64,000 bases of DNA from a virus. Below the pieces are notes generated by a model. The model saw nothing but the letters and a program-made list of their open reading frames with translations, searched no databases and had not been told where the DNA came from. Shown in pieces: positions 3-41,140 of the stretch. The translations under genes were made by a program, and so were the position numbers. The stretch covers positions 40,347-104,346 of the IMG/VR virus record IMGVR_UViG_3300030419_007002. One strand, written 5' to 3'. Each line of letters opens with the position of its first letter. Position 1 is the stretch's first letter.

Positions 3-686
3 TGCGACGAACTAACAGACATGGCGAAATCGAAAGGCTTAACCATAATGATAGCGCATACATTTTTATTTACTGGCGCAGTAAGAAAACTTAAAGACCT
101 AGCAGACTCCAATCATTTAGGAAACTTAAAACATTTCGATTCCTGCAGGGTTAATCTAGGATTATTCCAAAGAGATTCTAATGTGGTTTGGGATTTAGCT
201 CCCCACGACTTTTCTATCCTGAGTTATATAATCGGGGATGAAAAACCGCTTTTTCTTTCTGCGGTCGGGTCCACGCATACGCCGAAGGGGAACGCTGACG
301 TAGCGAATATATCAATTCAATATGAAAATGGGTTTTCTGCGCATATCCACATAAGCTGGTTCTCTCCTATTAAGGTGCGTCAAATTTTGCTTAATGGAGA
401 TGAGCGGATGGCCGTATATGACGACAACAAACCCTCCGAAAAGATAATGGTTTACGATAAGGGGGTAAATTACGCAGATAGCGTTTTCGATTATCGAGTG
501 GGTGATATGTTCTCCCCAAAACTACCAAGCTCTGAGGCAATTGAGCAAGAGATAGAACACTTTTGTGAATGCATTCAGGGGGCAGAATGCATATCGGGCC
601 CAGACCTAGGGAGGAAAGTTGTTGGGTTAATAGAGGCAACCAATAAGTCAATAGGGCTGAAAGGAGAACCTTTCGATGTACAGTAG
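3..686 (+). CDS. Gfo/Idh/MocA-family oxidoreductase (WbpB/WlbA-like nucleotide-sugar dehydrogenase), 5'-truncated
   Basis: Frame is open from position 3. Motifs HTFLF..AVRKLK, NVVWDLAPHDFS and HISWFSPIKVR are typical of the Gfo/Idh/MocA C-terminal domain; next to acetyltransferase and aminotransferase genes. Confidence 0.8.
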   Translation, partial: CDELTDMAKSKGLTIMIAHTFLFTGAVRKLKDLADSNHLGNLKHFDSCRVNLGLFQRDSNVVWDLAPHDFSILSYIIGDEKPLFLSAVGSTHTPKGNADVANISIQYENGFSAHIHISWFSPIKVRQILLNGDERMAVYDDNKPSEKIMVYDKGVNYADSVFDYRVGDMFSPKLPSSEAIEQEIEHFCECIQGAECISGPDLGRKVVGLIEATNKSIGLKGEPFDVQ

Positions 687-1134
687 AGTCAAGGATTGCA
701 AGCTGGGCATGGGAGTATCCGTGCATAACTATGTAAATGTTTATGGTTGCGAAATCGGCGGGAACACTACTTTAGGATCATATGTAGAAGTGCAAAAGAA
801 CGCCAAGATAGGTAAAAATTGTAAAATTTCTAGTCATTCATTTGTGTGTGAGGGCGTGGAAATAGAAGATGAAGTTTTTGTAGGCCACGGAGTTATGTTT
901 ATTAACGATAAAAAACCAAAAGCCTGTAATGTCGACGGATCCAAGCAAAGGGATGGCGATTGGAAGCTAGAGAAAACCATCGTAAGGAAAGGAGCATCGA
1001 TAGGATCAAACGCAACTATTTTATGTGGCATAGAGATAGGCGAAAGCGCAGTGGTAGGCGCTGGGTCAGTAGTAACAAAAGACGTGCCCCCTAATTCTAT
1101 CGTTTATGGAAATCCAGCGAAAACTAAACAATGA
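676..1134 (+). CDS. Hexapeptide-repeat sugar N-acetyltransferase (WbpD/WlbB/FdtC-like)
   Basis: Left-handed beta-helix repeats (IGKNCKISSHSFVCEGV, GASIGSNATILCGIEIG, VGAGSVVTKDVP..VYGNPA). Confidence 0.9.
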   Translation: MYSRVKDCKLGMGVSVHNYVNVYGCEIGGNTTLGSYVEVQKNAKIGKNCKISSHSFVCEGVEIEDEVFVGHGVMFINDKKPKACNVDGSKQRDGDWKLEKTIVRKGASIGSNATILCGIEIGESAVVGAGSVVTKDVPPNSIVYGNPAKTKQ

Positions 1135-2420
1135 AAATACAATTCATAAATCATGCTAGCGTAATTTTTAAATGCGGCGAAACAAAAATTCTAACTGACC
1201 CTTGGTACTGTGGACACCCTTTTAATAACGGGTGGAGCCTGTTGGTAGAAAAAGATATAGATATCAATAAATTAGATTTTAATTATCTTTGGTATTCTCA
1301 CGAGCACCCAGATCATTTCAGCATAGCTGATATAAAAAAAATTAACGAAGATCGCAAAAAAGAAATAACCATCCTTTTCCAAAAAACTCCAGACCAAAAA
1401 GTTAAAGGCTTCTGTGAGAAGCTGGGGTTTAAAGTAAAAGAATTAGAGCCACTGAAGGAATACGAATTAGAAGGGGGTGTAAAAATAATCTGCGGCATAG
1501 AAGGCGGATTTGATTCTTGGATTTCAGTTAGTCACGAAGATAAAACAGCCCTAAATATTAATGATTGCAGGGTAGAAAACGAAGAAGAGCTAGATGAAGT
1601 TAAAAACCTTGTCGGAAAAATTGATGTTTTGTTAACGCAATTTAGTTGGGCTAATTGGGTAGGCAATAGCGGTGATGAAAAAGCTATTGAAACATCCAAG
1701 GGGATGGTATACCATAGGGTAGATAATCAAATTAAATTTTTAAAACCGAAATATATTATACCCTTTGCTAGCTTTACTTGGTTTTCTCATGAAGAAAACT
1801 ATTTTTGTAATCACAATGCAATAACGGTAGAAGAATTCGTGGAAAGATACCCCGACGAGAATATGATTACGATGTACCTCGAAGATGAATGGGAGGTCGG
1901 AGAAGACAGGGATTGCGCAGATTCCATATCTAAATGGATGAAAGCAATATCCCAGAACAGAACCCCCAAACACACGAGCTATACCGTACCAATAGAAGAC
2001 CTATTAGACTCATTTAAAGAAATGAAATCTAAATTGCAAAAAGACAATGACTGGCAATCTATAATTGAGCTACATGAATCAGGAAATCTAGAAGACTGCA
2101 TAGTTCACCTTACGGATACGGACCAAAATTTTATATTTAACATAGTTAAAGAAGCATTAACAGAAACCCAAGAACCTCACGACATAGAAATGGGAAGCGA
2201 ATCTTTTCATTACTTAATGAAGCATGCTTGGGGAAGGGGGACGTTAATGATCAACGGCAGGTTTCAAGCTAATTACGAAACCTTATATAGATTTTTAAGG
2301 CAAACCCACATATATTACGGCAACAATATAGGAAAAAGTTTCCCGAAAGACATAAGCCCAGAACAGATAATTAACCCTAAATGTTTTGTCTTCGAAACGA
2401 TAGGGGAAATGAATAATTGA
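1131..2420 (+). CDS. Metallo-beta-lactamase-fold protein (UlaG / CMP-Neu5Ac hydroxylase-like)
   Basis: NHAS, ILTDPW, SHEHPDH metal-binding motif, NDC, IIPFAS. Confidence 0.7.
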   Translation: MKIQFINHASVIFKCGETKILTDPWYCGHPFNNGWSLLVEKDIDINKLDFNYLWYSHEHPDHFSIADIKKINEDRKKEITILFQKTPDQKVKGFCEKLGFKVKELEPLKEYELEGGVKIICGIEGGFDSWISVSHEDKTALNINDCRVENEEELDEVKNLVGKIDVLLTQFSWANWVGNSGDEKAIETSKGMVYHRVDNQIKFLKPKYIIPFASFTWFSHEENYFCNHNAITVEEFVERYPDENMITMYLEDEWEVGEDRDCADSISKWMKAISQNRTPKHTSYTVPIEDLLDSFKEMKSKLQKDNDWQSIIELHESGNLEDCIVHLTDTDQNFIFNIVKEALTETQEPHDIEMGSESFHYLMKHAWGRGTLMINGRFQANYETLYRFLRQTHIYYGNNIGKSFPKDISPEQIINPKCFVFETIGEMNN

Positions 2421-2421: not shown

Positions 2422-3519
2422 ATGAAAGTAAAATTCTTAGATTTATCAAAGCAAAATAAAGTTTTTAAAAGCGATTTCCTTAAGGAAGTTTCCGACATAG
2501 TGGATTCAGGGGCATACGTTTCCGGAAAAAGAGTTGAAAAGTTTGAGCAGGCGTTTGCTGAATATTGTGACTCGAAGTATTGCGTAGCTACTAGCAGTGG
2601 AACCTCAGCCTTACACGCGGCTCTTTCCTGCTTCGACCTAGAGGGGGACGTAGTAACTCCACCTAATAGCTTTATAGCCACAAGCGAGGCAGTTTCTTAC
2701 TGCGATAAATTAAAACATAAATTCGTAGATGTAGATAAAAGTGGGTGCATGGACCCCAAAAAAACTGAAAAACTAATAGGAGAGAAAGAAACTAAACTCA
2801 TTTTACCCGTAAGCCTTTACGGAAACCCATGCGATCTGATAGAGTACTCGAGGCTTTGTCAGCAACATAAAAAATTCTTAATACATGACGCTGCACAAGC
2901 TCATGGAGCAGAGGTGATGAATACGCCGATCTCTTGGTTTTCAATTGCTACGTGCTTCAGTTTTTATCCCGGTAAAAATTTAGGGACAGCAGGGGAAGGC
3001 GGCGCAGTTGTCACCAACTCTCGCCAAGCCTATGAATACATGAAGGCTTTCGTCAATCACGGACAAATTGAAAAATACAAACACGAAATAGTAGGTAACA
3101 ATTACAGGATGAGTGAAATAGAAGCGGCAGCTTTGAATATAAAACTAAACTACATAGACGAGTGGACAGATCAAAGGATTGAAGCAGCCGAAAGGTATAT
3201 CAATAACTTTTCCGGACACAAGAAAATAGGCCTAATCAAAACAAATCCACAGAACAAATGCGTATATCATTTATTTCCAGTTTTCGTTTCTAATAGAGAC
3301 AAAATTATCAAGAAGCTAAATGACAAAGGTGTCCAGACGGGAATACATTACCCTATACCCATCCACATGCAAGGAGCATACCAGAGCCTAGGTCACAAAA
3401 AAGGTGACTTCCCAGAATCAGAGAGGCAAGCTAGAAGAGAAATAAGCCTGCCTATTTACCCCGGAATAACCAACCAGCAGATAGATTACGTATCTGAATC
3501 CCTAATCGATTCATTATGA
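2422..3519 (+). CDS. DegT/DnrJ/EryC1/StrS PLP sugar aminotransferase
   Basis: SSGTSALH, DAAQAHGA, FSFYPGKNLG (PLP lysine), GNNYRMSEIEAA, ISLPIYP. Confidence 0.95.
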   Translation: MKVKFLDLSKQNKVFKSDFLKEVSDIVDSGAYVSGKRVEKFEQAFAEYCDSKYCVATSSGTSALHAALSCFDLEGDVVTPPNSFIATSEAVSYCDKLKHKFVDVDKSGCMDPKKTEKLIGEKETKLILPVSLYGNPCDLIEYSRLCQQHKKFLIHDAAQAHGAEVMNTPISWFSIATCFSFYPGKNLGTAGEGGAVVTNSRQAYEYMKAFVNHGQIEKYKHEIVGNNYRMSEIEAAALNIKLNYIDEWTDQRIEAAERYINNFSGHKKIGLIKTNPQNKCVYHLFPVFVSNRDKIIKKLNDKGVQTGIHYPIPIHMQGAYQSLGHKKGDFPESERQARREISLPIYPGITNQQIDYVSESLIDSL

Positions 3520-4418
3520 AGATAAAAACTTTCGGATATAAAAAAACCTCAGAGAACTACTTGCACTTACTTGAAGAAGAGTGGCTCAAAATGGGGCACG
3601 AAATTTTTTACGATGACGATACCTCTTCTGATTACGACTTCATTTTCAACATAGATAGATCTCAGTTAGACCTAGCTTATTCAGAGTCCATAAAACGGAA
3701 CAAGCCTCTACATTGTTTAATTTTAGATTTGTCTTATGGGTTTTTTAATGGGCAATTTAACATTTACGACCCCTCTCTCGTAGAAAAAGAAAGTCGAATA
3801 TATAAACACTGCGCTTCATTAATGGCGATCTCGAAGGAGACGGGGAGGGTACTAGAAAAGCTTACCGGACTTAGGGCTAACCACGTTGGAATACCCGCGC
3901 TTTCTTGTGATAAGTTTTATGAAGAAAGGGATAGGGGTGAATACATATATTTCTTTGGCAGACCCCTAGATCCAATTAAAAATATAACTACTGTTTTAAA
4001 AGCCATAAACGGCACAGGAGTTGAGCTTTACGTATCCGGAGAGCCATGCCCGCAAGAACTATTCACCTCTATCGCTCCAGACGTTAAAATAAAAAACTTT
4101 GGCTGGCTAGATAGGCAGGGGGTCAATGAACTAATAAAACAAGCCAGACTGCTGATAGCCCCAGAGCTCTATGGTGGACTAGGCATGCAGCCAATAGAGG
4201 GCGCACTAATGGGAACACCGTGCCTAAGCGCTGATATACCAATAAAAAGGGAGGTGTGGGGAGACACGCTACCCCTCTACGAACCCCAAGACCACGAAGA
4301 CTGTAGAGAAAAAATAATAAATTTTGATCAAGGATCTATCGATATGACAAAGGCAGCAGAGATAGCTGAATGGTACCTACCTAATAGAGTAGCAGAAAGG
4401 ATACTTAATAATATATGA
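3516..4418 (+). CDS. Glycosyltransferase, GT-B fold (GT4-like)
   Basis: FFGR...KN, GW(L), GGLGMQPIEGALMGTP..SADIP (EX7E-like region). Confidence 0.75.
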   Translation: MKIKTFGYKKTSENYLHLLEEEWLKMGHEIFYDDDTSSDYDFIFNIDRSQLDLAYSESIKRNKPLHCLILDLSYGFFNGQFNIYDPSLVEKESRIYKHCASLMAISKETGRVLEKLTGLRANHVGIPALSCDKFYEERDRGEYIYFFGRPLDPIKNITTVLKAINGTGVELYVSGEPCPQELFTSIAPDVKIKNFGWLDRQGVNELIKQARLLIAPELYGGLGMQPIEGALMGTPCLSADIPIKREVWGDTLPLYEPQDHEDCREKIINFDQGSIDMTKAAEIAEWYLPNRVAERILNNI

Positions 4419-5176
4419 AAATAGGCATTATATCCGCAGCGTATAATTGTGGTGAATACATTGATGAAGTTCTAGCTCCTTGGGTAGAGCTTAAAAAAGA
4501 GCACGATATATTTATTAGCATGATACATGTGTGCTTCAAAGAAAATCAAGAATTAGGCCTGTCGCCTAAATCAGAAGACAATACAGAAGAATTGTTGCAG
4601 CTTGCCCTAAGTGAATCAAAAATAGACTATTACGAATCTACGACAGAACCCCTTACAGAACCAGAGGCAAGGACTATATGCTTAAATAATGTTAAAAAAC
4701 ATGACATAGATTATCTTTGGCTCTTGGGCTTAGACGAAATATATACGACCGAAGAAATAAAAAAAATAATTAATTTTGTAGAATTTAATAAGTTCATATC
4801 TTGGTTTAGCATAAACTTTAAAAATTATTTATTCGAGAATAATACTTGGATAGATGGGTTCTCTCCCCCTAGAATCTTTAACGCAAGATGTAATGACGGT
4901 ATTAAGCAGCTTTATTACGATGACGATGTCGTTTATAATGATGGGGCAGACTATAAAGCGCTTTCTAATTTAGAGATACCCAGAGGGATAGCTCATGTCA
5001 AGCACATGACTTGGCTAAATAATGAAACCAGCAGGAGAAAATGTGAATACCAGAAATCTAGGTGGGGAGAAGATTTTTGTAGCTACCTTTGGGACTACGA
5101 CAAAAAAGAATTAAAATTCAATGAAAACTACTACAAGCTCCACAACAAACAAAAGCCAAAATTAAATTATGATTGA
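4415..5176 (+). CDS. Glycosyltransferase, GT-A fold (GT2-like)
   Basis: IISAAYNC, SEDNT, YLWLLGLDE (DxD-like), HVKH; sugar cluster context. Confidence 0.65.
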   Translation: MKIGIISAAYNCGEYIDEVLAPWVELKKEHDIFISMIHVCFKENQELGLSPKSEDNTEELLQLALSESKIDYYESTTEPLTEPEARTICLNNVKKHDIDYLWLLGLDEIYTTEEIKKIINFVEFNKFISWFSINFKNYLFENNTWIDGFSPPRIFNARCNDGIKQLYYDDDVVYNDGADYKALSNLEIPRGIAHVKHMTWLNNETSRRKCEYQKSRWGEDFCSYLWDYDKKELKFNENYYKLHNKQKPKLNYD

Positions 5177-6110
5177 TAAACCCAAGCTATGGTTATGCGG
5201 AATAACCCAAGACAGAGAAAAGGATGTGGAAGAAATGACTCGGCCAGAAGTCATGGAGCACTTTGATGGATTAGTTTTTACGGATGGTTATTCAAAAGAC
5301 GAAACTTATAGTATTCTTAACGAAAGAAAAAAAGAAGGAAAGATCGCTCGAAGAAAATGGACCAATGACCACGATTACCAAATGAACGAGTTCATGAGAT
5401 GCGGAGCAATGAGTAACGGAGATTGGTTTGTTTTATTAGATTCGCCAGATAGAGTAAACCTAGATTGGGCAGCTGGCCTAAGGGAAGAAATAGAAAAGCT
5501 AGAAGAAGAATCGGTAGGAGCCGTAAACATGGACAGCAAAATACATCTAGCAAAATATTTTGACCACATGTATTACGCCCCGAATCCTCACTGGGGCCTG
5601 CAAGGGGTCGTAAACAAAGTAGCATTTTACGACAAAGACCAGAAAGAGCAATGCATAGAAAGTAAAAGGTTTGATAATCCAGTAAAATCAGCTTTAGTTC
5701 ATCCCGTAAAATACTATTACGTATACGGAAGATCAAATCATTGCCAATTGCTTTACGGAAGATTTGGTGCAGAAGCAGTCAACTTCCACGAAGCTAATAG
5801 GTTAAGGTTCAGATTGCATTGCGAAAAAATCTTAGGGCTAGACATCTCCACGTTAGATTCTCTAGAAGAATTCTATAGGAAGGGAGATTTTAGCGACGAA
5901 TTCATAGATGCCGTGGAGCTAGAAGTAAACTTAAAAGATTACTTCAGATACAAAATACTAGAACAAGACTTCGTAGAAGAGATAGATAAAAATAGAATTA
6001 ATTGGAGTTTTAGACTATACTTAGATAGTGGAGACGCTAAACAAGAATCTACCGATTATAAGGGCCCGATAAATCAATACCTAGAACAGGTAGGACAACC
6101 AGAAGAATGA
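5169..6110 (+). CDS. Putative glycosyltransferase, GT-A-like
   Basis: VFTDGYSKDET and WFVLLDSPD resemble GT2 motifs; cluster context. Confidence 0.55.
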   Translation: MIDKPKLWLCGITQDREKDVEEMTRPEVMEHFDGLVFTDGYSKDETYSILNERKKEGKIARRKWTNDHDYQMNEFMRCGAMSNGDWFVLLDSPDRVNLDWAAGLREEIEKLEEESVGAVNMDSKIHLAKYFDHMYYAPNPHWGLQGVVNKVAFYDKDQKEQCIESKRFDNPVKSALVHPVKYYYVYGRSNHCQLLYGRFGAEAVNFHEANRLRFRLHCEKILGLDISTLDSLEEFYRKGDFSDEFIDAVELEVNLKDYFRYKILEQDFVEEIDKNRINWSFRLYLDSGDAKQESTDYKGPINQYLEQVGQPEE

Positions 6111-9827: not shown

Positions 9828-9858
9828 CCCCAATTTCCACCGTATAATTAATAGCCTC

Positions 9859-33615: not shown

Positions 33616-35471
33616 TCTAATTCCTCCCTGACCTCTTCTATAGTCATGTTAGAGTATGCCTTTCCGCCCAATATTGTACTGGGATTGTTCATGTAGTGCG
33701 TTCTGTTAAGATATACCGACGCATTTCGACTCTGCCTTCTACCAGCCCTTATGCTCCAAGTCTGCTCACCTAAAGAATCTACTATGTGAACGTGTCTCAT
33801 TCTAACGATTTGCCCATACTCTCTGGCGTATACGTTATTTGACCACGCCCTCCTAGGCGTTGCTTCGTCATCTTTATATAAAGCTATTATGGCTTCAGAA
33901 TTGCCACCCGCGCTCAGATTTAACTCTGCATCTATTATCAATGTATGCCCCGTTTGCACGGGGGATATAGATAGGCCTGTTATTTCGGTCCCCTGAGAGC
34001 TTTGAGGATTTTCATAATCAATAATTTCTGTCGTCGAAAATGTGTCATTCCATCTAACCCCAGTCATTCTAACATATTTACCCGTTACCCCAGCTATACC
34101 CGTCATTGGCCCTATGCCAGAGACGGTTAAATCAGATACCCATATTCCGTCTCCGGTTGCGGTTAGCAAGCCCAATACATGAAGATCTTGAAACGTTCCG
34201 GTCCCATGAAAGAATTTGTTTCCACTTACTTCTTGATTTCCAGTAGTTAAAACTATTTTGTCGAAGAAATTTACTTTCTCCTCGGTTATTCCGCCATCTA
34301 TTACGCTGAACGCCCCTATTTCATCTCCCCCTGCGCCAGTAAAATTTATCGTTTCTCCATCAACAAACACTCCAAGGTCCAGAGTGTCTCCCATATATAC
34401 TTTTATATCTCCAGTTAATCCAGCGCCAGCATTTACGCTGAAGTAACCCGAGCCTGTTTCCAAAAATGTACTATACGCGACACCAGTCTCTAACAATATT
34501 CCTGTATCAACATTGACTGCTCCCCCAGAAATTATTATTCCACTTCCCTGAACTACGTTAGCTACAACGCTTTGGTCTCCGCTGAAAACAAAATCATTGA
34601 GACCTGATCCACCACTTATGTTATGCTTAAGACCTAATACCTTAAAAGCGCCTATAGCGTCCTCGCCCCCGCCAGTAAAGCCTATTGTTTCGCCATCTAC
34701 ATAAACGCCTAGGTCTAAAGTATCGCCCATATAAACCTTGGTGTCGCCAGTAAGTCCAGCTGCGGCATTGATGTTAAAGAAGGCACTTCCAGTGGTTAAT
34801 AAATATCCTGTGTCTAAATTCACAGAGTCTTCAGTAACTATGAGCCCCGTTCCCGGGCTTAGATCTATTCTTCTGGAACTGCTTAGGTTTCCTCCCCCGA
34901 CTAAGCCACTACCGGCAATCATCTCTACATATAGGGGGTTAAAGCCAGTTAGCCCGCTTAAGTTTAAGCCTCTATATTTTACCCTACTAGTGTCACCGTC
35001 ATCATTTATTGCTATAGTCAAAAATCCAGTCGTTTCTCCATCATAGTCTACATCCCTTATATCCAGAGAACCACTTATATCTATATTACTAAGCAAAGTG
35101 GTGTCAGGTTTTGTAACAGTAAAACAGCAAGCAGTATCTTGACCCCTGTCAGACTCAACCCCAAAAACCTGAGCGTTTCCGATACCCTTTATCTTTAAGG
35201 TGTCCTGAGAACCTATATGAGATCTTAGCTCGGGTACTTCCCCAGATAGCCCGTAGGCATAACCACCCGTTGAAGCATAACCAAATTCTTCGGAGTTTGC
35301 TCCGCTAATTGCATCAAAGTAATAAACATCGCCAAATTCATCTTCAAATCTTAAACCGGTTACATACTCTAGACTTTGACCAGTTATTAAAATATGAGAA
35401 CCGGTAGGGCCCATGGAGGGTATAATTCCGTCGAGCCTTATATCTGGTACAAATGTTAATCCTTCACCCAT
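33612..35471 (-). CDS. Tail fibre/appendage-like virion protein with internal repeats
   Basis: N-terminal IPT-like segment, AG.GL.G fibre-type repeats, C-terminal beta-sandwich ending SNMTIEEV; very rich in SG/TG. Confidence 0.6.
   Translation of the reverse strand: MGEGLTFVPDIRLDGIIPSMGPTGSHILITGQSLEYVTGLRFEDEFGDVYYFDAISGANSEEFGYASTGGYAYGLSGEVPELRSHIGSQDTLKIKGIGNAQVFGVESDRGQDTACCFTVTKPDTTLLSNIDISGSLDIRDVDYDGETTGFLTIAINDDGDTSRVKYRGLNLSGLTGFNPLYVEMIAGSGLVGGGNLSSSRRIDLSPGTGLIVTEDSVNLDTGYLLTTGSAFFNINAAAGLTGDTKVYMGDTLDLGVYVDGETIGFTGGGEDAIGAFKVLGLKHNISGGSGLNDFVFSGDQSVVANVVQGSGIIISGGAVNVDTGILLETGVAYSTFLETGSGYFSVNAGAGLTGDIKVYMGDTLDLGVFVDGETINFTGAGGDEIGAFSVIDGGITEEKVNFFDKIVLTTGNQEVSGNKFFHGTGTFQDLHVLGLLTATGDGIWVSDLTVSGIGPMTGIAGVTGKYVRMTGVRWNDTFSTTEIIDYENPQSSQGTEITGLSISPVQTGHTLIIDAELNLSAGGNSEAIIALYKDDEATPRRAWSNNVYAREYGQIVRMRHVHIVDSLGEQTWSIRAGRRQSRNASVYLNRTHYMNNPSTILGGKAYSNMTIEEVREELE
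34307..34780. repeat. Diverged direct repeat, two copies of about 138 bp (34307-34446 and 34644-34780)
   Basis: Both encode NAxAGLTGDxKVYMGDTLDLGVxVDGETIxFTGxGxDxIGAF. Confidence 0.85.
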
Positions 35472-35491: not shown

Positions 35492-37429
35492 TTAGTCATG
35501 ATAATCTAGTAACGTTAGCGTTGCATTACCAGTAGTAATTCCTGTGCACGGGTTAACGCCTATGTAAGCTATATAGTCATGATTTATATTACAATTGAAT
35601 GGATTTTGCGTTATCACTCCACTTACCCATTCTCCAGTGTTTATCAAGCATGTGGCACTAACTCCTTGTATTTTTACCCCAGTAACGTTATGGAAAAATC
35701 TTCCACTTATACCTAAGAGCGCAGTAGCGCTTACGGAATTAGAAGTTAAACCGCTAACCTCTGGCCTTCTTCCAGATATCTCCATCAAATCCCCAGTCAA
35801 ATTTCCAACTAAGTCGTGCATATCCGAAGTCATAAATCTAGAAGAAAAAGATTCTATTTTAAATATTTTTCCTTCATAAACTGAATTCAGCCTTGATGGT
35901 TCGTAATCATTACTTATTATTAAGCTGTCAGGCACTAAGAACGGAAAGCCTTCACCTAAGAATGAATTATTTATAATTCCCGTTATTATACTCACACCCG
36001 TCCTCACCCCAGAGAGATTTTCTCCAGTTATACTAGAATGATCTATTCCTAAATCGTAACCAAAATAATCAGTTAATCCTATATCTAATTTTTTATTAAG
36101 CAGGTGATCAATCACAATATTACCTTCGGTACCATATTTCATTGTGGTCGTCACTCGGTTATTATGAGATATAAACCTAATCCCCGTATCTCCCCTACTA
36201 GAGGACATTCCAGTTATACCTATCAATGGGGCAGCTTGGTAGGCATTTAAGCCAGTTATCCTAAAGCTTTGTCCGACGATTAAATTTTCTGTTTCTATTC
36301 CTGATATAGATGGAAGCACAGTAAAAATCTGATCAGATTCTTCGAAAATTTCATTTCCGCTGATGGTAATAGGTGAATTAATTATTTCTCTCGGTACCCT
36401 TATGTAAGCCCCCGTTCCATCTACAAAAGTTTTTTCTTTAGCGGGTATATACTCTGCAGATTCCCCGCTCCAAGCAGATCTAAATAAGAATTCAACCCCA
36501 GTTAATTGAGTCCCCGATATGTTTATTAAATCGTTATATTTGCCAGAAGAGGGCTCTATTATATTTATACCAGTATAAACAGAATGAAGCTCAGTCGGCG
36601 ATAAAGTACTTTCAGCTATTTGTCCACCGGTAATATTTATCAATTTAAATTTTTCTTTCTCTTTAATATTTGGCGGTATATTGAAAGACAAACCAGTTGT
36701 GCCTACTCCGGTAAATAACAATGAAGAGAGGGGCCTATTTCCAGAAACGGTGGACTGAACAATATAAGGATTACTTAACACTACGCTCGGTACCCTAGAC
36801 CCCGTAAATTCTAACTTGTCTATTTTATGAAGAGAAATACCAGATAAATCAACCCTAGTACCCGGAAATCCAGACAAAGGAGAAAAGCCTTTTACTTCAG
36901 TGTCAGGAACTCTTACTTCAAAATTTCCAGTTTGGCTTACTCCCGACTGACCGCTCAAGGTAGTGACTAACCCCCCCGTAGCATAAACGAATATTGGTCC
37001 AGAATTAGATTCATTAGGAACAGTAAACCTTATACCCGTTTCTCCATCTACGGAAAAATTATTAGAAAATGTCTCTGCTATTTGGACTCCAGTTATGTTA
37101 ACAAAATTTTCTCCGCTTATTAATACATCTTCCCCCCAATAAGCCCCAGTCGCTCTATCGAAACCAGAGATTTGTGGTTTATCTATGAACCTAAGGCCCG
37201 TACCGGATGCATAGTTTACTCCATTGTATAAAACAAATGTATTATGTTTTTCTAGACCATCGGGAATACGAAAACTTACAAAATTATGTGCGCTAGTAAA
37301 AGAACCACTGACTATGTCTGCCCGATTACCGCTTGTGCTATTAAAAAATATAGCCGTTTCAGGGGTATCATATATCCCCGAACCGCTAAGCGATAAAACG
37401 TCTCCTGCTATTCCACTTTTAAAAGCCAT
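35492..37429 (-). CDS. IPT/TIG-like repeat virion protein
   Basis: Repeated P.I.GF.P..G..G..V.ISG.N units; SG/TG-rich. Confidence 0.6.
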   Translation of the reverse strand: MAFKSGIAGDVLSLSGSGIYDTPETAIFFNSTSGNRADIVSGSFTSAHNFVSFRIPDGLEKHNTFVLYNGVNYASGTGLRFIDKPQISGFDRATGAYWGEDVLISGENFVNITGVQIAETFSNNFSVDGETGIRFTVPNESNSGPIFVYATGGLVTTLSGQSGVSQTGNFEVRVPDTEVKGFSPLSGFPGTRVDLSGISLHKIDKLEFTGSRVPSVVLSNPYIVQSTVSGNRPLSSLLFTGVGTTGLSFNIPPNIKEKEKFKLINITGGQIAESTLSPTELHSVYTGINIIEPSSGKYNDLINISGTQLTGVEFLFRSAWSGESAEYIPAKEKTFVDGTGAYIRVPREIINSPITISGNEIFEESDQIFTVLPSISGIETENLIVGQSFRITGLNAYQAAPLIGITGMSSSRGDTGIRFISHNNRVTTTMKYGTEGNIVIDHLLNKKLDIGLTDYFGYDLGIDHSSITGENLSGVRTGVSIITGIINNSFLGEGFPFLVPDSLIISNDYEPSRLNSVYEGKIFKIESFSSRFMTSDMHDLVGNLTGDLMEISGRRPEVSGLTSNSVSATALLGISGRFFHNVTGVKIQGVSATCLINTGEWVSGVITQNPFNCNINHDYIAYIGVNPCTGITTGNATLTLLDYHD

Positions 37430-37430: not shown

Positions 37431-39071
37431 TTAATTAAATCCTATTTCCCCCGCTCCTCCGCCTTGGTTTATTGGTTTTTTCATAACAAAGACTGAGTTT
37501 TCCCAAGTCGCGTCTCCTATGGGTGTTTGAACCATTATAGAATAAAGCCCAGCGCCCGGATCTGGAGAGCTATCATGCGGGAAGCTAGCTTCCGCGGGAA
37601 GATCGAAAGAGACTACGTCTCCGCCTTCTTCGTCTCCCCCGATGAAGGTTCCCTCCCCGCCGTAAGGATTAGAAGCCTCTCCTTCGTAAGTTATGACTTC
37701 GCTTCCTATTAATTTTATGCCAGTTGCAATACCTAAATTTTTTCCACTTAACACAATCCTACTACCGCCCCGATAAGAGTCTGAGGGCTTAACGTTTATT
37801 GTGCCTTTGTTATATATTTCCGGTAAACCCGGATTAACTATGAATATACCCGTAGAAAAATAAGATCCTCTTCCCGCGTTTTCAGATTTTTTGATATAAA
37901 CTGGTCCGCTTTTCGCCCCCAAGGGTATGGAACCAGTTATTGTTGTGTTATTTATTTTGTTAAATTGAGAATAAACCTCGCTCCTATCATTCGAAGTAAA
38001 ATAAACAGATAGCCCACTGGGGTCCAATATCCTAAAGTATCCACTCCCTCCGTACCCAGTGTTTTTTACATCATAATAATATAATTTATCCGGAGCATCA
38101 TCGTAAAGAGTTAGTTGCGCATAAGGTTGCCACGAGATCCCCGTATGGGAATACCCAGTCACACCAGCGATGCCGTGTTGAGAAAAACCAGAGTAATCAT
38201 ACAAACCAGAAAAAACTCCAGTAGACCCAGTGATTGCGTGTGCACCGTCTACCCTTTCTGAAACCGCAAATGCATTACCCGAGTTTGAGATATGCATGGT
38301 ACTAAAATAGTATGTATGATTTCTAAACAAGGTAATTATCGGGCAGCCATCGGCAATGCCCGTACTATATCCACTGCGTTGAATATAATATTTATTACCT
38401 ACCCCAGAGGATTCGCCCTGATTAACACGAATTTCATATAGATTTCCAGAATCAGAAAAATCAGAAAATAATTCATCGAAAAAATATTGTCCATATATAC
38501 CGACAGAATTACCAGTGTCTCCACTAGTTAAACTAAATCCTGTTATTTTAACTTCTGGAATAAAAAATTGATCATGGTATCCCGTTACGCCAGACTGTCC
38601 GAATAAAGAAATTTTACCATATGTATTTCCAGAGGGTATAGTCAACGTTATTCCCGTATTTGAATCGACAGTTAAATCGCAATTTAAATTGTTTATGGTA
38701 GCCCCAGTTATCCCAGAAAAACAATTACCCGTAACAGAAACCGTTTCTCCAGATATACCAAATATAGGAGCAAAAGAATTGATCCTAGGCGCAGGCACAA
38801 ATTTGTCGATAGTATAACCACTAACGCCGGTGGAAAAACCAGAGGCCCCGCTTATGTCCCCTGACGCGTAGCTAACCAAATTGTCAGATACGAGCCAAAT
38901 GTTATCCCAAGCAGCGTTTTCCGGAACCGTAGTCCTTATTAAATTCTTGTCTATTATTTGAAAATCAGATTCAGCAGAAGAAAATAAAACACGCTCTACG
39001 GGTAACAAATAATCTCCAGATATAGATATCTGATCACCTATGCTGCCGCTAATTTCCCCTAAAGTAATCAT
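37431..39071 (-). CDS. IPT/TIG-like repeat virion protein
   Basis: PRINSFAPIFGISGETVSVTGNCF and similar units; APDKLYY segment; SG/TG-rich. Confidence 0.6.
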   Translation of the reverse strand: MITLGEISGSIGDQISISGDYLLPVERVLFSSAESDFQIIDKNLIRTTVPENAAWDNIWLVSDNLVSYASGDISGASGFSTGVSGYTIDKFVPAPRINSFAPIFGISGETVSVTGNCFSGITGATINNLNCDLTVDSNTGITLTIPSGNTYGKISLFGQSGVTGYHDQFFIPEVKITGFSLTSGDTGNSVGIYGQYFFDELFSDFSDSGNLYEIRVNQGESSGVGNKYYIQRSGYSTGIADGCPIITLFRNHTYYFSTMHISNSGNAFAVSERVDGAHAITGSTGVFSGLYDYSGFSQHGIAGVTGYSHTGISWQPYAQLTLYDDAPDKLYYYDVKNTGYGGSGYFRILDPSGLSVYFTSNDRSEVYSQFNKINNTTITGSIPLGAKSGPVYIKKSENAGRGSYFSTGIFIVNPGLPEIYNKGTINVKPSDSYRGGSRIVLSGKNLGIATGIKLIGSEVITYEGEASNPYGGEGTFIGGDEEGGDVVSFDLPAEASFPHDSSPDPGAGLYSIMVQTPIGDATWENSVFVMKKPINQGGGAGEIGFN

Positions 39072-40285
39072 GATATTTCTCTTTGCTTTACGTAGAGAAT
39101 TTTAGAATTAGATGGCCCGCCTATACCGTAAGCCCTGACCAATGCACGAGCATCAGCGGTCCAACCACGACTACGGCGGTGAATATCTTCTGGAATTTTT
39201 ACATATTGTATTTCAGATTCTTTTACGGCCCCGCTTATATCTGCATTAGAACCATTCATTTCTATTTCAGAGACAGTATCTAAACCAATACCATGTATAG
39301 TAATATATTCTCCCGGGTATACAAAATCTTTCGTTCCCGTGACAGAAAAATAAGTTATGCTAGGCGCTCTACCCACTGTAGACTGAGAAATATTTAATCT
39401 ACCCCCTACTTTACTATTTGGCTCTACCGAGTAACTCTTGTCTGTCAACTTACCAGATATTAAAAACTCATCATGTAAATTACCGTTAAAGTCATGGGTC
39501 TTTAAGCACAGGTTGACATGTTCACCAGAGTAAGGAATTTTTATCCCTGTGTCATTAGTATCTATAGTAAGATTTATATTCTTTTCTCCGAACCTTATTT
39601 CTTTAGGGTATATTTCTCCCACCCTTAAGCATGGTTCCACTGAGGATTCGAAGGAATAATCTAGGCCAAGGATATTGTCAGTAGTAATGCCGATGGGCTC
39701 GTCATAATAAAAATTATCTATAGTTAAGTCATCGTATTTTAGAAACTCTACTTCTTTTGGTAAAACATTATTTTCGCCATCTAAAACAACTGTCGATTCT
39801 TCTATTCCATGAAAAAAAGATATACTTGCTTTAACATCAATAGGGGTATTAGGTCTAGCGCTTAAAGAGTAAGATGTTAGATATCCACTTCTTATTATGT
39901 TTTCACCTATTTTGAAGGTCATGTTCGGAAACCCATCAAAATTTAAATTCTTATATAAAGGAAACGATGCATCGTCACTATTACCAATTTTTTCTTTTTC
40001 ATTTAAAAAATAATATTTTTTTAATGGATCCTGTCCAGTCAGAAGATAGCTTAATTGTATACTTCCCCTAGGGCTAGTATTAGCTAGCGGTTCTTCTGGA
40101 CTCCTTCTTTCAGTTAAATAAGAATTACTTAAGGAAACGCTATTAGAAATTTCTACAGAAGTTGCATATATGTGCTCTAACGGATAATCACCCTGCTGCT
40201 CCCAGCGGTCAATATCCCACCAAGGTTGATGCAAAGATGGCGCAAAAAATACCTTTACATCTTTAGATTGTAAATATTTACCCAT
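39068..40285 (-). CDS. Putative tail tube-like structural protein with C-terminal IPT-like domain
   Basis: GYLTSYSLSA..N.PI...ASI beta pattern resembling tube proteins; PSITYF...PGEYITIHG. Confidence 0.45.
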   Translation of the reverse strand: MGKYLQSKDVKVFFAPSLHQPWWDIDRWEQQGDYPLEHIYATSVEISNSVSLSNSYLTERRSPEEPLANTSPRGSIQLSYLLTGQDPLKKYYFLNEKEKIGNSDDASFPLYKNLNFDGFPNMTFKIGENIIRSGYLTSYSLSARPNTPIDVKASISFFHGIEESTVVLDGENNVLPKEVEFLKYDDLTIDNFYYDEPIGITTDNILGLDYSFESSVEPCLRVGEIYPKEIRFGEKNINLTIDTNDTGIKIPYSGEHVNLCLKTHDFNGNLHDEFLISGKLTDKSYSVEPNSKVGGRLNISQSTVGRAPSITYFSVTGTKDFVYPGEYITIHGIGLDTVSEIEMNGSNADISGAVKESEIQYVKIPEDIHRRSRGWTADARALVRAYGIGGPSNSKILYVKQREIS

Positions 40286-40315
40286 TAATTCCTTATTCCT
40301 TGATATTAATTACAC
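40286..40315 (-). promoter_or_regulatory. Conserved leader motif (putative late promoter + tandem AGG)
   Basis: Minus strand GTGTAATTAATATCAAGGAATAAGGAATTA-ATG. Confidence 0.6.
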
Positions 40316-41140
40316 CTATAGCTTGTATACTTCCTTGCTAAGAAGCTTATATTCTGCCCATAATTTATCTCTAACCCCCGGGTCCTCGTTAAAAGAAAGG
40401 CTCCCCTTTCTCCTAAAGTAAGTATAAGTTTCTACACCGTTAGCTGGACAAGCAAATATGCCAGCCTTATGCATCTCTTCCCACAGCAGAAGATCTTCAT
40501 GAGCCATTAAACCTTCATGAAATAATTTTCCGTCCTCTGGTATAAGGGATTCGTGCATGAGAGTTGCCCAAGGGCCGAACCTTTTATTCATCACGTTTTT
40601 TTTTGCTTGGTGAGTAGTCCTAATCCATTCTTTTGGGGTTTCGGCCTCTATAGTGTAGTCTCCTACTACAAATTTTTTATTATGTTTTTTAGCGAAACTT
40701 ATTAATCCCCTAGCTTTTCCATCGTGAACCTCGTCATCTGCATCGCAAAGCAATATAGCTGGATAATCTTTTCTATAATGATTTATTTCTTTAATTATTC
40801 TATTTTTTGCCTGTGCGGCGCTCTCCGCTTTGCTAAAATAATGGGATTCAAAAACGTCTGCACTACAATATTTTTTATTATGATCTATTCTATCTTGAGT
40901 TTCGTCTGTCGAGCCGTCATTTGCCAACAGAAAAACCCAATTTAAGCCACTCATGGACCGTTCTACGCTTTCCAAAGCTCTGGTCAACCACTCGTTAGCG
41001 TTATGGGCAGACATCACCACCTGAAAGCCTGTATTTTTCCATAGTTGTTCGGGGGCATTTTTATTTAAGTTTATAAATTTTTTATGCCTGTCTATTAGAG
41101 TTTCTTCGGGTTTTCTAGGCTTCTTCAGTACATGAGCCAT
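40316..41140 (-). CDS. Glycosyltransferase family 2
   Basis: VVMSAHN, ANDGSTD, AKN, LCDADD, HED. Confidence 0.85.
   Translation of the reverse strand: MAHVLKKPRKPEETLIDRHKKFINLNKNAPEQLWKNTGFQVVMSAHNANEWLTRALESVERSMSGLNWVFLLANDGSTDETQDRIDHNKKYCSADVFESHYFSKAESAAQAKNRIIKEINHYRKDYPAILLCDADDEVHDGKARGLISFAKKHNKKFVVGDYTIEAETPKEWIRTTHQAKKNVMNKRFGPWATLMHESLIPEDGKLFHEGLMAHEDLLLWEEMHKAGIFACPANGVETYTYFRRKGSLSFNEDPGVRDKLWAEYKLLSKEVYKL

What the first reader, a model, noticed from the sequence alone, without database searches (positions are those of the whole stretch)
3..41140. Candidate phage-encoded virion protein glycosylation system
Seen: at least seven glycosyltransferase-like genes, a dehydrogenase/acetyltransferase/aminotransferase trio, gmd, an epimerase and HldE-like kinase and nucleotidyltransferase genes. 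One GT2 (40316-41140) lies directly upstream of, and co-directional with, the minus-strand virion genes that are very rich in Ser-Gly/Thr-Gly. Known: these families make activated rare sugars (amino/acetamido sugars, GDP-6-deoxy sugars, nucleotide-heptose). Inference: the phage makes its own donors and glycosylates its virion appendages. Host surface remodelling or DNA modification are alternatives.
Basis: partly seen in the sequence, partly recalled or inferred. Interest (0 to 1): 0.8.

Follow-up and report, generated by a model that had tools for sequence, protein, structure and literature searches.

The report
Marine phage with huge glycosylation toolkit
An abundant, uncultured marine tailed phage carries about a dozen sugar-transferring enzymes plus the machinery to make and decorate unusual sugars, most plausibly to coat its own tail fibres with sugar, though the target is inferred and not shown.

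Summary
The window is the last 64 kb of a 104-kb IMG/VR phage record (about 60% complete; lambda-type tail tip, DnaE replication module). It has five well-supported and two weak glycosyltransferase (GT) genes, an oxidoreductase/acetyltransferase/aminotransferase trio, Gmd, a GalE-like epimerase and HldE-like kinase and nucleotidyltransferase genes. Just upstream lie five more GT-like genes (one GT60-like polypeptide GlcNAc-transferase), four sulfotransferases, a carbamoyltransferase, an FkbM methyltransferase and a phosphomannomutase.

The three fibre proteins are truly [S/T]G-rich: 6.0-7.4 per 100 residues against about 0.8 elsewhere, z 6-10. T4 and lambda fibres and bacterial IPT-repeat homologues lack this.

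New here: a GT9-like enzyme split across two genes, conserved in about 60 relatives.

Virion glycosylation is the best reading (about 0.45) but unproven. No enzyme is membrane-bound, and no flippase, polymerase, ligase or priming transferase is encoded. No hydroxymethylase, TET or C5-methylase for DNA glycosylation was found.

Against it: the conserved GT pair sits in the replication module, [S/T]G sites map to beta-strand ends, and three relatives keep the GT pair beside fibres without the motif.

The scan's first-stage readers had already noted this arsenal and the [S/T]G bias in overlapping windows of this same genome.

The parts
3..686 (+). Gfo/Idh/MocA sugar oxidoreductase, C-terminal 227 aa. 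The gene starts 294 nt upstream of the window.
   Evidence: PF22725, 43.6 bits. Best NCBIfam match is UDP-GlcNAc 3-dehydrogenase.
676..1134 (+). Hexapeptide-repeat sugar N/O-acetyltransferase
   Evidence: Hexapep 75.6 bits; NeuD/PglB/VioB subfamily 84 bits. Absent from relative G001.
2422..3519 (+). DegT/DnrJ/EryC1 sugar aminotransferase
   Evidence: PF01041, 341.9 bits. Best NCBIfam match is PseC, 252 bits, below its cut-off.
3516..4418 (+). GT4-type glycosyltransferase
   Evidence: Glyco_trans_1_4 38.3 bits and Glycos_transf_1 35.1 bits, both over their cut-offs.
4415..6110 (+). Two weak GT2-like genes (4415-5176 and 5169-6110)
   Evidence: PF00535 at 16.1 bits and 21.6 bits, both under the 23.3 cut-off. 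Both are conserved in G001 at 69-76% identity.
6107..7171 (+). GDP-mannose 4,6-dehydratase (Gmd)
   Evidence: PF16363 362 bits; TIGR01472 347.7 bits. Conserved in G001 and G002.
9802..11036 (+). HldE-like nucleotidyltransferase (9802-10269) and PfkB sugar kinase (10266-11036), as separate genes in reversed order
   Evidence: TIGR02199 78.3 bits (cut-off 181.5) and TIGR02198 128.3 bits (cut-off 345). No GmhA was found.
14701..15213 (+). P-loop kinase, APS-kinase-like only over the N-terminal P-loop. A possible PAPS supplier for the four sulfotransferases.
   Evidence: PF01583 40 bits, covering residues 4-69 only. The role is inferred.
27276..28187 (+). GalE-like NAD-dependent sugar epimerase/dehydratase
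   Evidence: PF01370 215.9 bits; TIGR01179 200 bits, below its cut-off. Absent from the G002 lineage.
28770..30680 (+). 636-aa multidomain GT. Residues 1-435 are a retaining GT4 fold with an inserted Cys4 ribbon. A DUF4214-like helical region follows. Residues 530-634 are the N-lobe of a GT9-like enzyme.
30682..31329 (+). Anp1-like (GT-A) glycosyltransferase, inserted between the two halves of the split GT9
   Evidence: PF03452 38.7 bits. Present only in G000, G001 and L067.
31331..32515 (+). 394-aa protein. Residues 1-182 are the C-lobe (donor-binding half) of the GT9-like enzyme. Residues 190-394 are an unknown domain.
   Evidence: PF01075 29.9 bits over profile positions 106-229. PDB 1psw WaaF, residues 242-343. 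hhalign against WaaC residues 165-290 gives 91% probability. In L083/L084/L086 the two halves are stand-alone adjacent ORFs of 119 and 184 aa.
33286..33615 (-). 109-aa protein at the end of the fibre operon, a possible fibre assembly factor
   Evidence: phrog_9114. Syntenic in most relatives. The role is inferred.
33612..35471 (-). 619-aa distal fibre / receptor-binding protein. It has an N-terminal IPT-like domain, an [S/T]G-rich repetitive shaft, and a Pgp3/TNF-like C-terminal head that is nearly free of the motif.
   Evidence: PF05475 25.6 bits over residues 492-616. [S/T]G is 7.1 per 100 in residues 1-491 and 1.6 per 100 in residues 492-619. z = 6.4.
35492..37429 (-). 645-aa fibre built as a string of Ig-like/IPT domains, with 48 [S/T]G sites
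   Evidence: z = 10. AF2 pLDDT 77, all-beta. Foldseek matches plexin IPT, titin and S-layer arrays. Homologue P0005 carries PF01833. A 67-residue repeat was found by iterated HMM search.
37431..39071 (-). 546-aa fibre with four IPT-like repeats and 37 [S/T]G sites
   Evidence: z = 7.0.
39068..40285 (-). 405-aa first gene of the fibre operon, with one C-terminal IPT-like domain and no [S/T]G enrichment. Probably the tail-tip adaptor.
   Evidence: It is preceded by the structural-gene leader GTGTAA...AGG-N4-AGG. It is retained in L033, which lacks the fibres.
40316..41140 (-). GT2 (GT-A) glycosyltransferase directly upstream of the fibre operon
   Evidence: PF00535 55.2 bits. The nearest solved relative is TarP, 6h1j. 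The same position is kept in G001, L021 and L006-L009. The gene is absent in the G002 lineage and in the commonest lineage.

Best explanation
The phage builds a complex, heavily decorated glycan in the host cytoplasm with its own enzymes. It most likely attaches that glycan to its own structural proteins, with the [S/T]G-rich Ig-like tail fibres as the best candidates.

Shown by sequence analysis:
- Nucleotide-sugar modules: phosphomannomutase plus Gmd for GDP-6-deoxyhexoses; an oxidoreductase/aminotransferase/acetyltransferase set for acetamido sugars; an HldE-like kinase and nucleotidyltransferase for a heptose-like donor; and a UDP-Glc/GDP-Man dehydrogenase-like gene.
- About twelve soluble GT-like genes of GT2, GT4, GT9-like, GT60-like and Anp1-like types.
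- Tailoring enzymes: four sulfotransferases, a carbamoyltransferase, an FkbM methyltransferase and an acetyltransferase.

Inferred:
- A priming GT puts the first sugar on Ser/Thr of the folded or folding fibres. Candidates are the GT60-like polypeptide GlcNAc-transferase, the split GT9-like enzyme (by analogy with autotransporter heptosyltransferases, which modify Ser in an SGG context) and the fibre-adjacent GT2.
- The other GTs then extend the chain and the tailoring enzymes decorate it.
- The receptor-binding head is left bare.
- The coat would shield the long fibres or tune adsorption.
For: 1. Size and content of the toolkit.

2. No ORF with more than 4 TM-like segments in G000, G001, G002 or the 210-kb relative C4, and no GT with a TM segment. 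Wzx, Wzy, WaaL, priming phosphoglycosyltransferases and ABC exporters are therefore absent.

3. PF11397 (GT60) scores 234.6 bits. Its characterised members are polypeptide GlcNAc-transferases (PMC6939170).

4. The GT9-like enzyme is conserved in about 60 relatives. TibC, a GT9-related enzyme, heptosylates Ser313 in the context NSGG of TibA (PMC4358343).

5. A GT2 heads the fibre operon in four lineages.

6. [S/T]G enrichment has z 6.4-10. It is absent from T4 gp34-37 and from lambda J and Stf.
   - It is absent from bacterial IPT/TIG homologues, which show observed/expected 1.0-1.5 with [ST]G about equal to G[ST].
   - It is present both inside and outside the IPT-like repeats, at 7.7-8.7 versus 5.6-6.0 per 100.
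   - It is preferentially conserved: 83% of sites are kept at 54% overall identity, against 48% of other Ser/Thr.
   - It is nearly absent from the receptor-binding head.
   - It is depleted in gpJ, at observed/expected 0.42.

7. A 210-kb distant relative also combines the GT pair, a large glycan cluster and [S/T]G-rich ORFs.

8. Precedents, from my own knowledge and as cited in PMC12619734: mycobacteriophage capsid and tail-tube glycosylation. From my own knowledge only: chlorovirus and mimivirus self-encoded glycosylation. The best Foldseek hit of the 636-aa GT is a chlorovirus GT, although it is tied with bacterial GT4s.
Against: - There is no direct evidence that any virion protein is modified.
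- In the AF2 model the [S/T]G sites sit at beta-strand ends or starts, so a purely structural role is possible.
- The only universally conserved GTs, the 636-aa and 394-aa proteins, lie between DnaE with a Whirly-like SSB lead and an SSAP/Rad52-like lead.
- None of the GT or sugar genes has the GTGTAA...AGG-N4-AGG leader that precedes structural genes.
- L074 and L078 keep the GT pair next to fibres at 1.3-1.6 [S/T]G per 100, and L033 has no fibre there.
- The G002 lineage lacks the GT2, the epimerase and the Anp1-like GT, yet keeps 4.7-7.0 [S/T]G per 100.
- The GT60-like gene is absent from the 210-kb relative.
- The enzyme families are equally typical of O-antigen and capsule loci.
- The head module of the genome was not available.
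Confidence: 0.45

Rival explanations
1. Host envelope remodelling. The phage enzymes feed into the host's own lipid-linked O-antigen, capsule or exopolysaccharide pathways during infection. This changes the cell surface, for example to exclude superinfecting phages, to stop progeny re-adsorbing to lysing cells, or to alter aggregation. The 'LPS gene clusters' of marine cyanomyophages have been proposed to work this way.
For: - The families present are those of O-antigen, capsule and Nod-factor decoration loci: Gfo/Idh/MocA + DegT + hexapeptide acetyltransferase, PMM + Gmd + SDR, GT2/GT4/GT9, HtrL_YibB, carbamoyltransferase, sulfotransferases and an FkbM methyltransferase.
- The nearest solved relative of the fibre-adjacent GT2 is the prophage wall-teichoic-acid GT TarP.
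- Peripheral GTs of such pathways need no TM helices of their own.
- The sugar cassette varies between close relatives, as serotype loci do.
Against: - No flippase, polymerase, ligase, priming transferase or exporter is encoded in about 460 kb of four related genomes.
- No integrase or lysogeny module was seen, so there is no long-term seroconversion benefit.
- A GT60-like polypeptide GT does not fit.
- The strong, lineage-specific [S/T]G bias of the fibres is left unexplained.
Confidence: 0.25
2. DNA hypermodification. The conserved GT-B enzymes embedded in the replication module glycosylate phage DNA bases to evade restriction, using phage-made donors. Phage gene clusters that put heptose and other sugars on 5hmC work this way.
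For: - The 636-aa and 394-aa GT genes lie between DnaE with an SSB-like gene and an SSAP-like gene, in about 60 relatives.
- Nucleotide-metabolism genes are interspersed with the sugar genes: RNR, dCMP deaminase, a dNMP-kinase-like gene, dUTPase and a deoxyribosyltransferase-like gene.
- A published phage cluster of kinase + cytidylyltransferase + GT-B makes mono- and di-heptosyl-5hmC (bioRxiv 10.1101/2023.12.21.572611).
Against: - No ThyA-type hydroxymethylase, TET/JBP dioxygenase or C5-methyltransferase is present in G000, G001 or G002.
- The 210-kb relative contig C4 has no ThyA-type hydroxymethylase or TET/JBP dioxygenase; the only ThyA hit in that MAG lies on a bacterial contig. C5-methyltransferase was not searched there.
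- G001 has an ordinary ThyX.
- Twelve GTs, four sulfotransferases, and carbamoyl- and methyltransferases far exceed any known DNA glycan.
Confidence: 0.12
3. The [S/T]G bias is purely structural and unrelated to the GTs. The glycan machinery makes a soluble or secreted product, such as a sulfated oligosaccharide, or serves host metabolism.
For: - [S/T]G sites fall at strand termini in the model. Ten lie two residues before a strand end, and many lie just before a strand start.
- The 67-residue repeat consensus itself carries about ten [S/T]G.
- Relatives exist with the GT pair but without motif-rich neighbours.
Against: - Bacterial proteins with the same repeat fold lack the bias.
- The bias also holds outside the repeats.
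- No exporter for a secreted product is encoded.
Confidence: 0.1

Closest known systems
Mycobacteriophage virion glycosylation (Freeman et al. 2023, Cell Host Microbe; cited in PMC12619734, paper itself not held)
   Same: Phage-encoded GTs act in the cytoplasm on the phage's own structural proteins. A GT gene lies next to structural genes.
   Different: That system has one to a few GTs, uses host donors, and targets the C-termini of capsid and tail-tube subunits. This phage has about twelve GT-like genes, its own donor synthesis, and sulfo-, carbamoyl- and methyl-tailoring enzymes. The proposed targets here are Ig-like fibres with an internal [S/T]G motif. Nothing has been shown experimentally.
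Chlorovirus (PBCV-1 Vp54) and mimivirus fibril glycosylation (own knowledge; chlorovirus NY2A GT structure 3oy2)
   Same: The virus encodes both nucleotide-sugar synthesis and cytoplasmic GTs to decorate its own virion. The glycans are methylated and contain rare sugars. 3oy2 is the top Foldseek hit of the 636-aa GT.
   Different: Those are eukaryotic giant viruses. The structural hit is tied with bacterial GT4 enzymes, so it does not indicate specific kinship.
Bacterial autotransporter heptosyltransferases (TibC/AAH; PMC4358343)
   Same: They are GT9-related enzymes that use ADP-heptose to hyper-glycosylate Ser residues of a beta-rich surface protein in the cytoplasm. A modified Ser lies in an SGG context. 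A Cys4 metal finger helps grip the substrate.
   Different: There is no sequence hit to TibC. The phage enzyme is split into two polypeptides. Its Cys4 motif lies in the fused GT4 domain, not in the GT9 C-lobe. No N-terminal beta-barrel was identified.
LPS heptosyltransferases WaaC/WaaF (GT9)
   Same: Both lobes are recognisable by profile comparison and by PF01075.
   Different: The N-lobe and C-lobe are on different proteins, each fused to other domains. The phage encodes no lipid A-core context. The donor and acceptor are unknown.
Phage DNA-glycosylation gene clusters (bioRxiv 10.1101/2023.12.21.572611; PMC13326640)
   Same: Phage GT-A and GT-B enzymes work with a sugar-activating kinase and cytidylyltransferase, in a replication-proximal genome position.
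   Different: The defining partners were not found: a ThyA-type hydroxymethylase, or a C5-methyltransferase plus TET.
'LPS' gene clusters of marine cyanomyophages such as P-SSM2 (own knowledge)
   Same: A large marine phage carries many polysaccharide-type genes of unproven function.
   Different: This is a different phage type, a siphophage with a lambda-like tip. Here the genes are accompanied by a GT60-like gene, a split GT9 and motif-rich fibres that suggest a protein target.

Membership tests
Phage-encoded virion protein glycosylation system | GT genes encoded by the phage and linked to structural genes | tested here: met
   The GT2 at 40316-41140 heads the fibre operon in G000, G001, L021 and L006-L009. 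The other GTs are not linked to structural genes.
Phage-encoded virion protein glycosylation system | Glycan demonstrated on virion proteins | not testable with these tools
   This needs glycoproteomics or glycan staining of virions or of co-expressed proteins.
GT9 heptosyltransferase (PF01075; WaaC/WaaF type) | C-terminal donor-binding lobe matches the family model | tested here: met
   PF01075 scores 29.9 bits against a cut-off of 22. hhalign against WaaC residues 165-290 gives 91% probability.
GT9 heptosyltransferase (PF01075; WaaC/WaaF type) | Both Rossmann lobes in one polypeptide | tested here: not met
   The N-lobe is residues 530-634 of the 636-aa protein. The C-lobe is residues 1-182 of the 394-aa protein. 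In L083 they are separate ORFs of 119 and 184 aa.
GT9 heptosyltransferase (PF01075; WaaC/WaaF type) | Uses ADP-heptose | not testable with these tools
   HldE-like genes are present but score below the equivalog cut-offs. No GmhA was found.
Bacterial autotransporter heptosyltransferase (BAHT: TibC/AAH) | Sequence similarity to TibC, and an iron finger inserted in the C-lobe | tested here: not met
   The PDB sequence search returned only WaaF (1psw), with no TibC hit. The invariant Cys4 lies in the GT4 domain of the other protein.
GT60 polypeptide GlcNAc-transferase (PF11397) | Match to the family model over its cut-off | tested here: met
   234.6 bits against a cut-off of 21, for the gene at G000 21742-23061, outside the window. 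The acceptor specificity was not tested.
Wzx/Wzy- or ABC-dependent O-antigen/capsule locus | Priming phosphoglycosyltransferase, flippase or exporter, polymerase or ligase | tested here: not met
   No ORF has more than 4 TM-like segments in G000, G001, G002 or C4. This was a hydropathy scan only, and the genomes are incomplete.
Phage DNA glycosylation cluster | ThyA-type (hydroxy)methylase, or C5-methyltransferase plus TET/JBP, to create the acceptor hydroxyl | tested here: not met
   PF00303, PF12851 and PF00145 are absent from G000, G001 and G002. PF00303 and PF12851 are absent from the 210-kb contig C4. ThyX is present in G001. G000 and G001 are only 60-66% complete.
HldE (ADP-heptose synthase) | Equivalog-level match of the kinase and adenylyltransferase domains | tested here: not met
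   128.3 bits against a cut-off of 345, and 78.3 bits against 181.5. These are nevertheless the best hits of both proteins.
IPT/TIG Ig-like repeat proteins (PF01833) | Match to the family model or fold | tested here: inconclusive
   The window fibres gave no Pfam hit. Homologue P0005 carries PF01833. NCBI names a distant homologue an IPT/TIG protein. The AF2 model matches plexin IPT and Ig arrays.

The most novel reading that the evidence does not exclude
The fibres are 'phage proteoglycans'. Ser/Thr of the [S/T]G sites would carry sulfated, methylated, carbamoylated 6-deoxyhexose/uronic glycans resembling algal fucoidan or glycosaminoglycan.

The phage would make these glycans entirely with its own enzymes: PMM-Gmd-SDR, a UDP-sugar dehydrogenase, four sulfotransferases and a split GT9.

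Such a coat could act as bait for the polysaccharide-capture receptors of marine Bacteroidota, or could shield a very long tail apparatus.

The host lead is weak: 6 of 14 mis-binned MAG contigs are Bacteroidota.
Probability: 0.08. Interest if true: 0.95.

Novelty: new variant of a known kind. Interest (0 to 1): 0.66.

Why it matters
Self-encoded virion glycosylation is established for giant eukaryotic viruses and, on a small scale, for mycobacteriophages.

A very abundant marine phage group devotes tens of kilobases to glycan synthesis, sulfation included. The 636-aa GT has at least 3,473 metagenomic homologues and the GT60-like GT at least 7,766.

If this group uses that machinery to decorate its fibres, several things would follow:
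- Glycan coats would be a mainstream feature of ocean phages.
- Adsorption, grazing, aggregation and immune-like recognition could all be affected.
- A candidate O-glycosylation motif, hydrophobic-[S/T]-G-hydrophobic, would be available to test.
- A natural two-polypeptide GT9 enzyme would be available for enzymology.

Even if the target proves to be the host envelope or DNA, the enzyme set is an unusually rich, self-contained glycan pathway.

Tried and rejected
SEARCHES THAT FOUND NOTHING USEFUL
- Megablast of 22 kb against 50,697 phage records: no match.
- DnaE tblastn against the same records: only hits below 30% identity. No cultured relative exists.
- Single-protein search for related loci with the 645-aa fibre and with gpL: nothing. 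Alignments were needed.
- PHROGs gave almost nothing for the fibre block.
- PDB sequence searches of the 636-aa GT, both single-sequence and profile, gave nothing. The GT60-like protein also gave nothing.
- VIA wide search of the 636-aa model was filled by the GT4 domain. The C-terminal GT9-N-lobe claim therefore rests on hhalign and on the stand-alone ORFs, not on a fold match.
- Literature searches for marine phages with sulfotransferase plus GT sets found nothing relevant. The Freeman 2023 paper is not held.

TOOLS OR RECORDS NOT AVAILABLE
- The larger relatives' contigs, including the 175,849-bp one, are not held for whole-record searches.

IDEAS REJECTED
- The 267-aa and 272-aa ORFs that occupy the GT2 position in the commonest lineage are not GT2 homologues. 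They are S/T/N-rich structural-looking proteins and an HMM search gave no hit.
- The 190-aa and 247-aa neighbours of the GT pair are not sugar enzymes. Atlas leads point to a Whirly-type SSB and an SSAP/Rad52-like protein. These are leads only.
- The 'PLP decarboxylase' is not a sugar-pathway enzyme. It is a histidine decarboxylase equivalog.
- The 'APS kinase' is supported only over its P-loop.
- A strict correlation between GT number and [S/T]G density could not be tested. Flanks are limited to 10 kb, and in the 210-kb relative the motif-rich ORFs lie 60 kb from the GT pair.

Full report
WHERE THE WINDOW LIES

The window is bases 40347-104346 of a 104,346-bp virus record. CheckV estimates the record to be about 60% complete.

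It is a tailed phage with these features:
- A lambda-type tail tip: gpM, gpL, gpK and gpI-like genes and a 1496-aa gpJ at 41210-50302.
- A tape measure of 3050 aa, plus a 496-aa ORF just upstream that may belong to it.
- A replication module of DnaB, primase, PD-(D/E)XK nuclease, PHP, exonuclease and DnaE at 19788-27279.

No cultured phage is close. Relatives are plentiful in marine metagenomes. The 636-aa GT has at least 3,473 homologues, and hundreds of them are about 65% identical over the full length.

I obtained these related sequences:
- A sister contig G001 of 114 kb, with proteins 42-89% identical to the window's.
- A 28-kb fragment of a third lineage, G002.
- 67 further IMG/VR loci with 10-kb flanks.
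- A 210,818-bp long-read contig (G003:C4), mis-binned into a bacterial MAG. It is a distant, near-complete relative.

CHECKING THE OBSERVATION

Five GT genes are well supported:
- 3516-4418, GT4.
- 28770-30680, GT4.
- 30682-31329, Anp1-like.
- 31331-32515, GT9 C-lobe.
- 40316-41140, GT2.

Two more are weak GT2 matches, at 4415-5176 and 5169-6110.

The kinase and nucleotidyltransferase have HldE domains as their best hits but stay well below the equivalog cut-offs. No GmhA is encoded.

The region also holds genes that are not sugar genes:
- A RecA-like gene.
- A histidine decarboxylase, 517 bits against a cut-off of 305.
- A tmRNA.
- The replication genes.

The arsenal is larger than reported. 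The 40 kb before the window add the following:
- A GT4.
- Two weak GT2-like genes.
- An 807-aa FkbM-methyltransferase/HtrL_YibB protein.
- A carbamoyltransferase.
- A GT60-like gene (PF11397, 234.6 bits).
- Four sulfotransferases.
- A eukaryote-type phosphomannomutase.
- A UDP-Glc/GDP-Man dehydrogenase-like gene.
- A second cytidylyltransferase-like gene.
- A radical-SAM/SPASM protein.
- An ATE_C-like transferase.

Most of these are conserved in G001. The acetyltransferase, the MBL-fold gene, the OCD-like gene and the 2-hydroxyacid dehydrogenase are not, so the cassette varies between sister phages.

THE [S/T]G BIAS

The three fibres have 6.0, 7.4 and 6.8 [S/T]G per 100 residues. The rest of the proteome has about 0.8, with an observed/expected ratio of 1.03.

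Measures of the bias:
- Observed/expected from composition is 2.3-3.3, z is 6.4-10, and none of 2000 shuffles reaches the observed count.
- The reverse dipeptide is rare. In the 645-aa protein 65% of all Gly follow Ser or Thr.
- The preferred context is hydrophobic-[S/T]-G-hydrophobic.
- T4 gp34-37 and lambda J and Stf show no such bias, with observed/expected 0.7-1.5.

The proteins are strings of a 67-residue IPT-like Ig domain. The evidence for this is an iterated HMM search, an AF2 model with pLDDT 77, and Foldseek hits to plexin IPT, titin and S-layer arrays.

The repeat consensus itself holds about ten [S/T]G, so the fold explains part of the bias. It does not explain all of it:
- Density outside the repeats is still 5.6-6.0 per 100.
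- Among 147 representatives of the wider family the distribution is bimodal.
  - The phage-group fibres have observed/expected 2.0-3.6.
  - The giant tandem-repeat homologues have 1.0-1.5, with [ST]G about equal to G[ST]. They include proteins that NCBI names IPT/TIG or tandem-95 repeat proteins of bacteria.
- The sites are preferentially conserved. At 54% overall identity, 83% are kept, against 48% of other Ser/Thr.
- The Pgp3/TNF-like head of the 619-aa protein is almost free of the motif, at 1.6 per 100.
- gpJ is depleted, with 9 sites observed and 21.5 expected. Depletion is similar in two homologues but not in the homologue from L033, the locus with no fibre genes beside the GT block.

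In the model the sites lie at strand ends or just before strand starts. That placement is compatible with a structural cap and equally with exposed acceptor sites.

A SPLIT GT9-LIKE ENZYME

The 636-aa protein has four parts:
- An invariant Cys4 ribbon inserted in that fold.
- A DUF4214-like helical stretch.
- A last domain whose profile aligns to residues 2-58 of E. coli WaaC/WaaF, with 95% probability.

The 394-aa protein begins with the GT9 C-lobe. The support is PF01075, the WaaF structure 1psw, and hhalign to WaaC residues 165-290 at 91% probability.

In most relatives the two genes are adjacent. In this window an Anp1-like GT gene is inserted between them. In L083, L084 and L086 the two lobes are small adjacent ORFs of 119 and 184 aa.

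The enzyme is therefore a two-polypeptide GT-B. This is an inference from sequence, because a complex could not be folded here.

COMPARATIVE GENOMICS

The block of 190-aa gene, 636-aa GT, 394-aa GT and 247-aa gene follows DnaE in about 60 loci. It usually converges on large minus-strand ORFs with 4-10 [S/T]G per 100 residues. The highest value is 10.0, in a 3067-aa protein.

Exceptions and qualifications:
- L074 has fibres at 1.3 and 1.6 per 100.
- L078 has a fibre at 1.3 per 100.
- L033 has no fibre genes at that place.
- In the 210-kb relative the motif-rich ORFs lie 60 kb from the block. A 10-kb flank therefore cannot prove absence from a genome.

The fibre-adjacent GT2 is present in G000, G001, L021 and L006-L009. 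It is absent in the G002 lineage, and it is replaced by unrelated ORFs in the commonest lineage.

The G002 lineage also lacks the epimerase and the Anp1-like GT. Its fibres still have 4.7-7.0 per 100.

Atlas leads suggest the 190-aa protein is a Whirly-type SSB and the 247-aa protein an SSAP/Rad52-like annealing protein. If so, the conserved GT pair sits inside the replication/recombination module.

The motif GTGTAA...AGG-N4-AGG precedes five genes. Four are tail or fibre genes and the fifth is a trypsin-like protease gene (possibly the prohead protease). It precedes none of the GT genes.

WEIGHING THE TARGETS

Against a lipid-linked polysaccharide:
- No protein in G000, G001, G002 or C4 has more than four TM-like segments.
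- No GT has a TM segment.

Against DNA glycosylation:
- No ThyA-type enzyme, TET/JBP or C5-methyltransferase is present in G000, G001 or G002.
- No ThyA-type enzyme or TET/JBP is present on C4.
- G001 has an ordinary ThyX.
- A published phage cluster does heptosylate 5hmC using a kinase, a cytidylyltransferase and a GT-B. Because the genomes are incomplete, this rival is weakened but not excluded.

For a protein target:
- The characterised members of the GT60 family are polypeptide GlcNAc-transferases.
- The GT9-related TibC modifies Ser in an SGG context of a beta-rich substrate in the cytoplasm.
- The GT2 is linked to the fibre operon.
- The fibres carry a lineage-specific motif.

My estimates are:
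- Virion protein glycosylation: about 0.45.
- Host envelope remodelling: about 0.25.
- DNA modification: about 0.12.
- An unrelated structural motif plus some other glycan product: about 0.10.

VERDICT

Relative to known systems this is a new variant of virus-encoded self-glycosylation. It is unusual in four ways:
- Its scale.
- Its sulfation capacity.
- The split GT9.
- The candidate sequon.

The decisive test is glycoproteomics of the fibres, from virions or from co-expression with the phage GTs.

Noticed in passing
window 18535-18948 (+): A phage-encoded tmRNA gene. Rfam RF00023 scores 124 bits against a gathering threshold of 47, and ARAGORN also calls it. It lies between small ORFs upstream of the replication module.
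   Followed up: partly
window 8627-9827 (+): A histidine decarboxylase equivalog (NF002748, 517 bits, cut-off 305). Its ATG abuts the 3' end of tRNA-Arg(TCT). It is 86% identical in sister phage G001. A histamine-forming enzyme in a marine phage is unexplained.
   Followed up: partly
window 28770-32515 (+); L083:9655-10555: A GT9-like glycosyltransferase is split into an N-lobe and a C-lobe on two polypeptides. In this window the two genes are separated by an inserted Anp1-like GT gene. In distant relatives the lobes are adjacent ORFs of 119 and 184 aa.
   Followed up: yes
window 50299-60956 (-): The tape measure is in two ORFs, of 496 aa and 3050 aa, in different frames and 14 nt apart. In G001 a single 3611-aa ORF covers both. 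This is either a real split or frameshift, or an assembly error. A tape measure of about 3,550 aa implies a tail of roughly half a micrometre.
   Followed up: partly
window 45061-49551 (+): gpJ is significantly depleted in [S/T]G, with 9 observed and 21.5 expected (Poisson P 0.002). Homologues in G001 and L005 are also depleted (0.62 and 0.54). The homologue in L033, the locus with no fibre genes beside the GT block, is not (0.86).
   Followed up: partly
G000 1-40000 (L001, L002), upstream of the window: Four sulfotransferases, a carbamoyltransferase, an FkbM methyltransferase fused to an HtrL_YibB domain, a GT60-like GT with at least 7,766 metagenomic homologues, a radical-SAM/SPASM protein, an ATE_C-like aminoacyl-tRNA transferase homologue, a saccharopine-dehydrogenase-like gene and an aldehyde dehydrogenase.
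   Followed up: partly
window 12480-13703 (+): A MotA/ExbB-like 161-aa membrane protein is followed by a single-TM 197-aa protein. Both are conserved in G001. First-stage readers also noted this module.
   Followed up: no
window 40291-40315, 41181-41204, 60961-60983, 63186-63211; G000 26166-26190: The leader GTGTAA-N(8-12)-AGG-N4-AGG occurs five times in 104 kb. Four copies lie directly before tail or fibre genes. The fifth lies before a trypsin-like protease gene, possibly the prohead protease. It is probably a late promoter or translation signal.
   Followed up: partly
L047, L055, L057 (relatives), DnaE gene: In some relatives DnaE is interrupted. Pieces of 602 and 396 aa flank an opposite-strand 285-aa ORF, which suggests a mobile insertion such as a homing endonuclease.
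   Followed up: no
L090-L103 (genome contigs): Contigs of this phage group are binned into MAGs of many phyla, including an Asgard archaeon. Six of the 14 are Bacteroidota. This is probably a binning artefact and is only a weak host lead.
   Followed up: no
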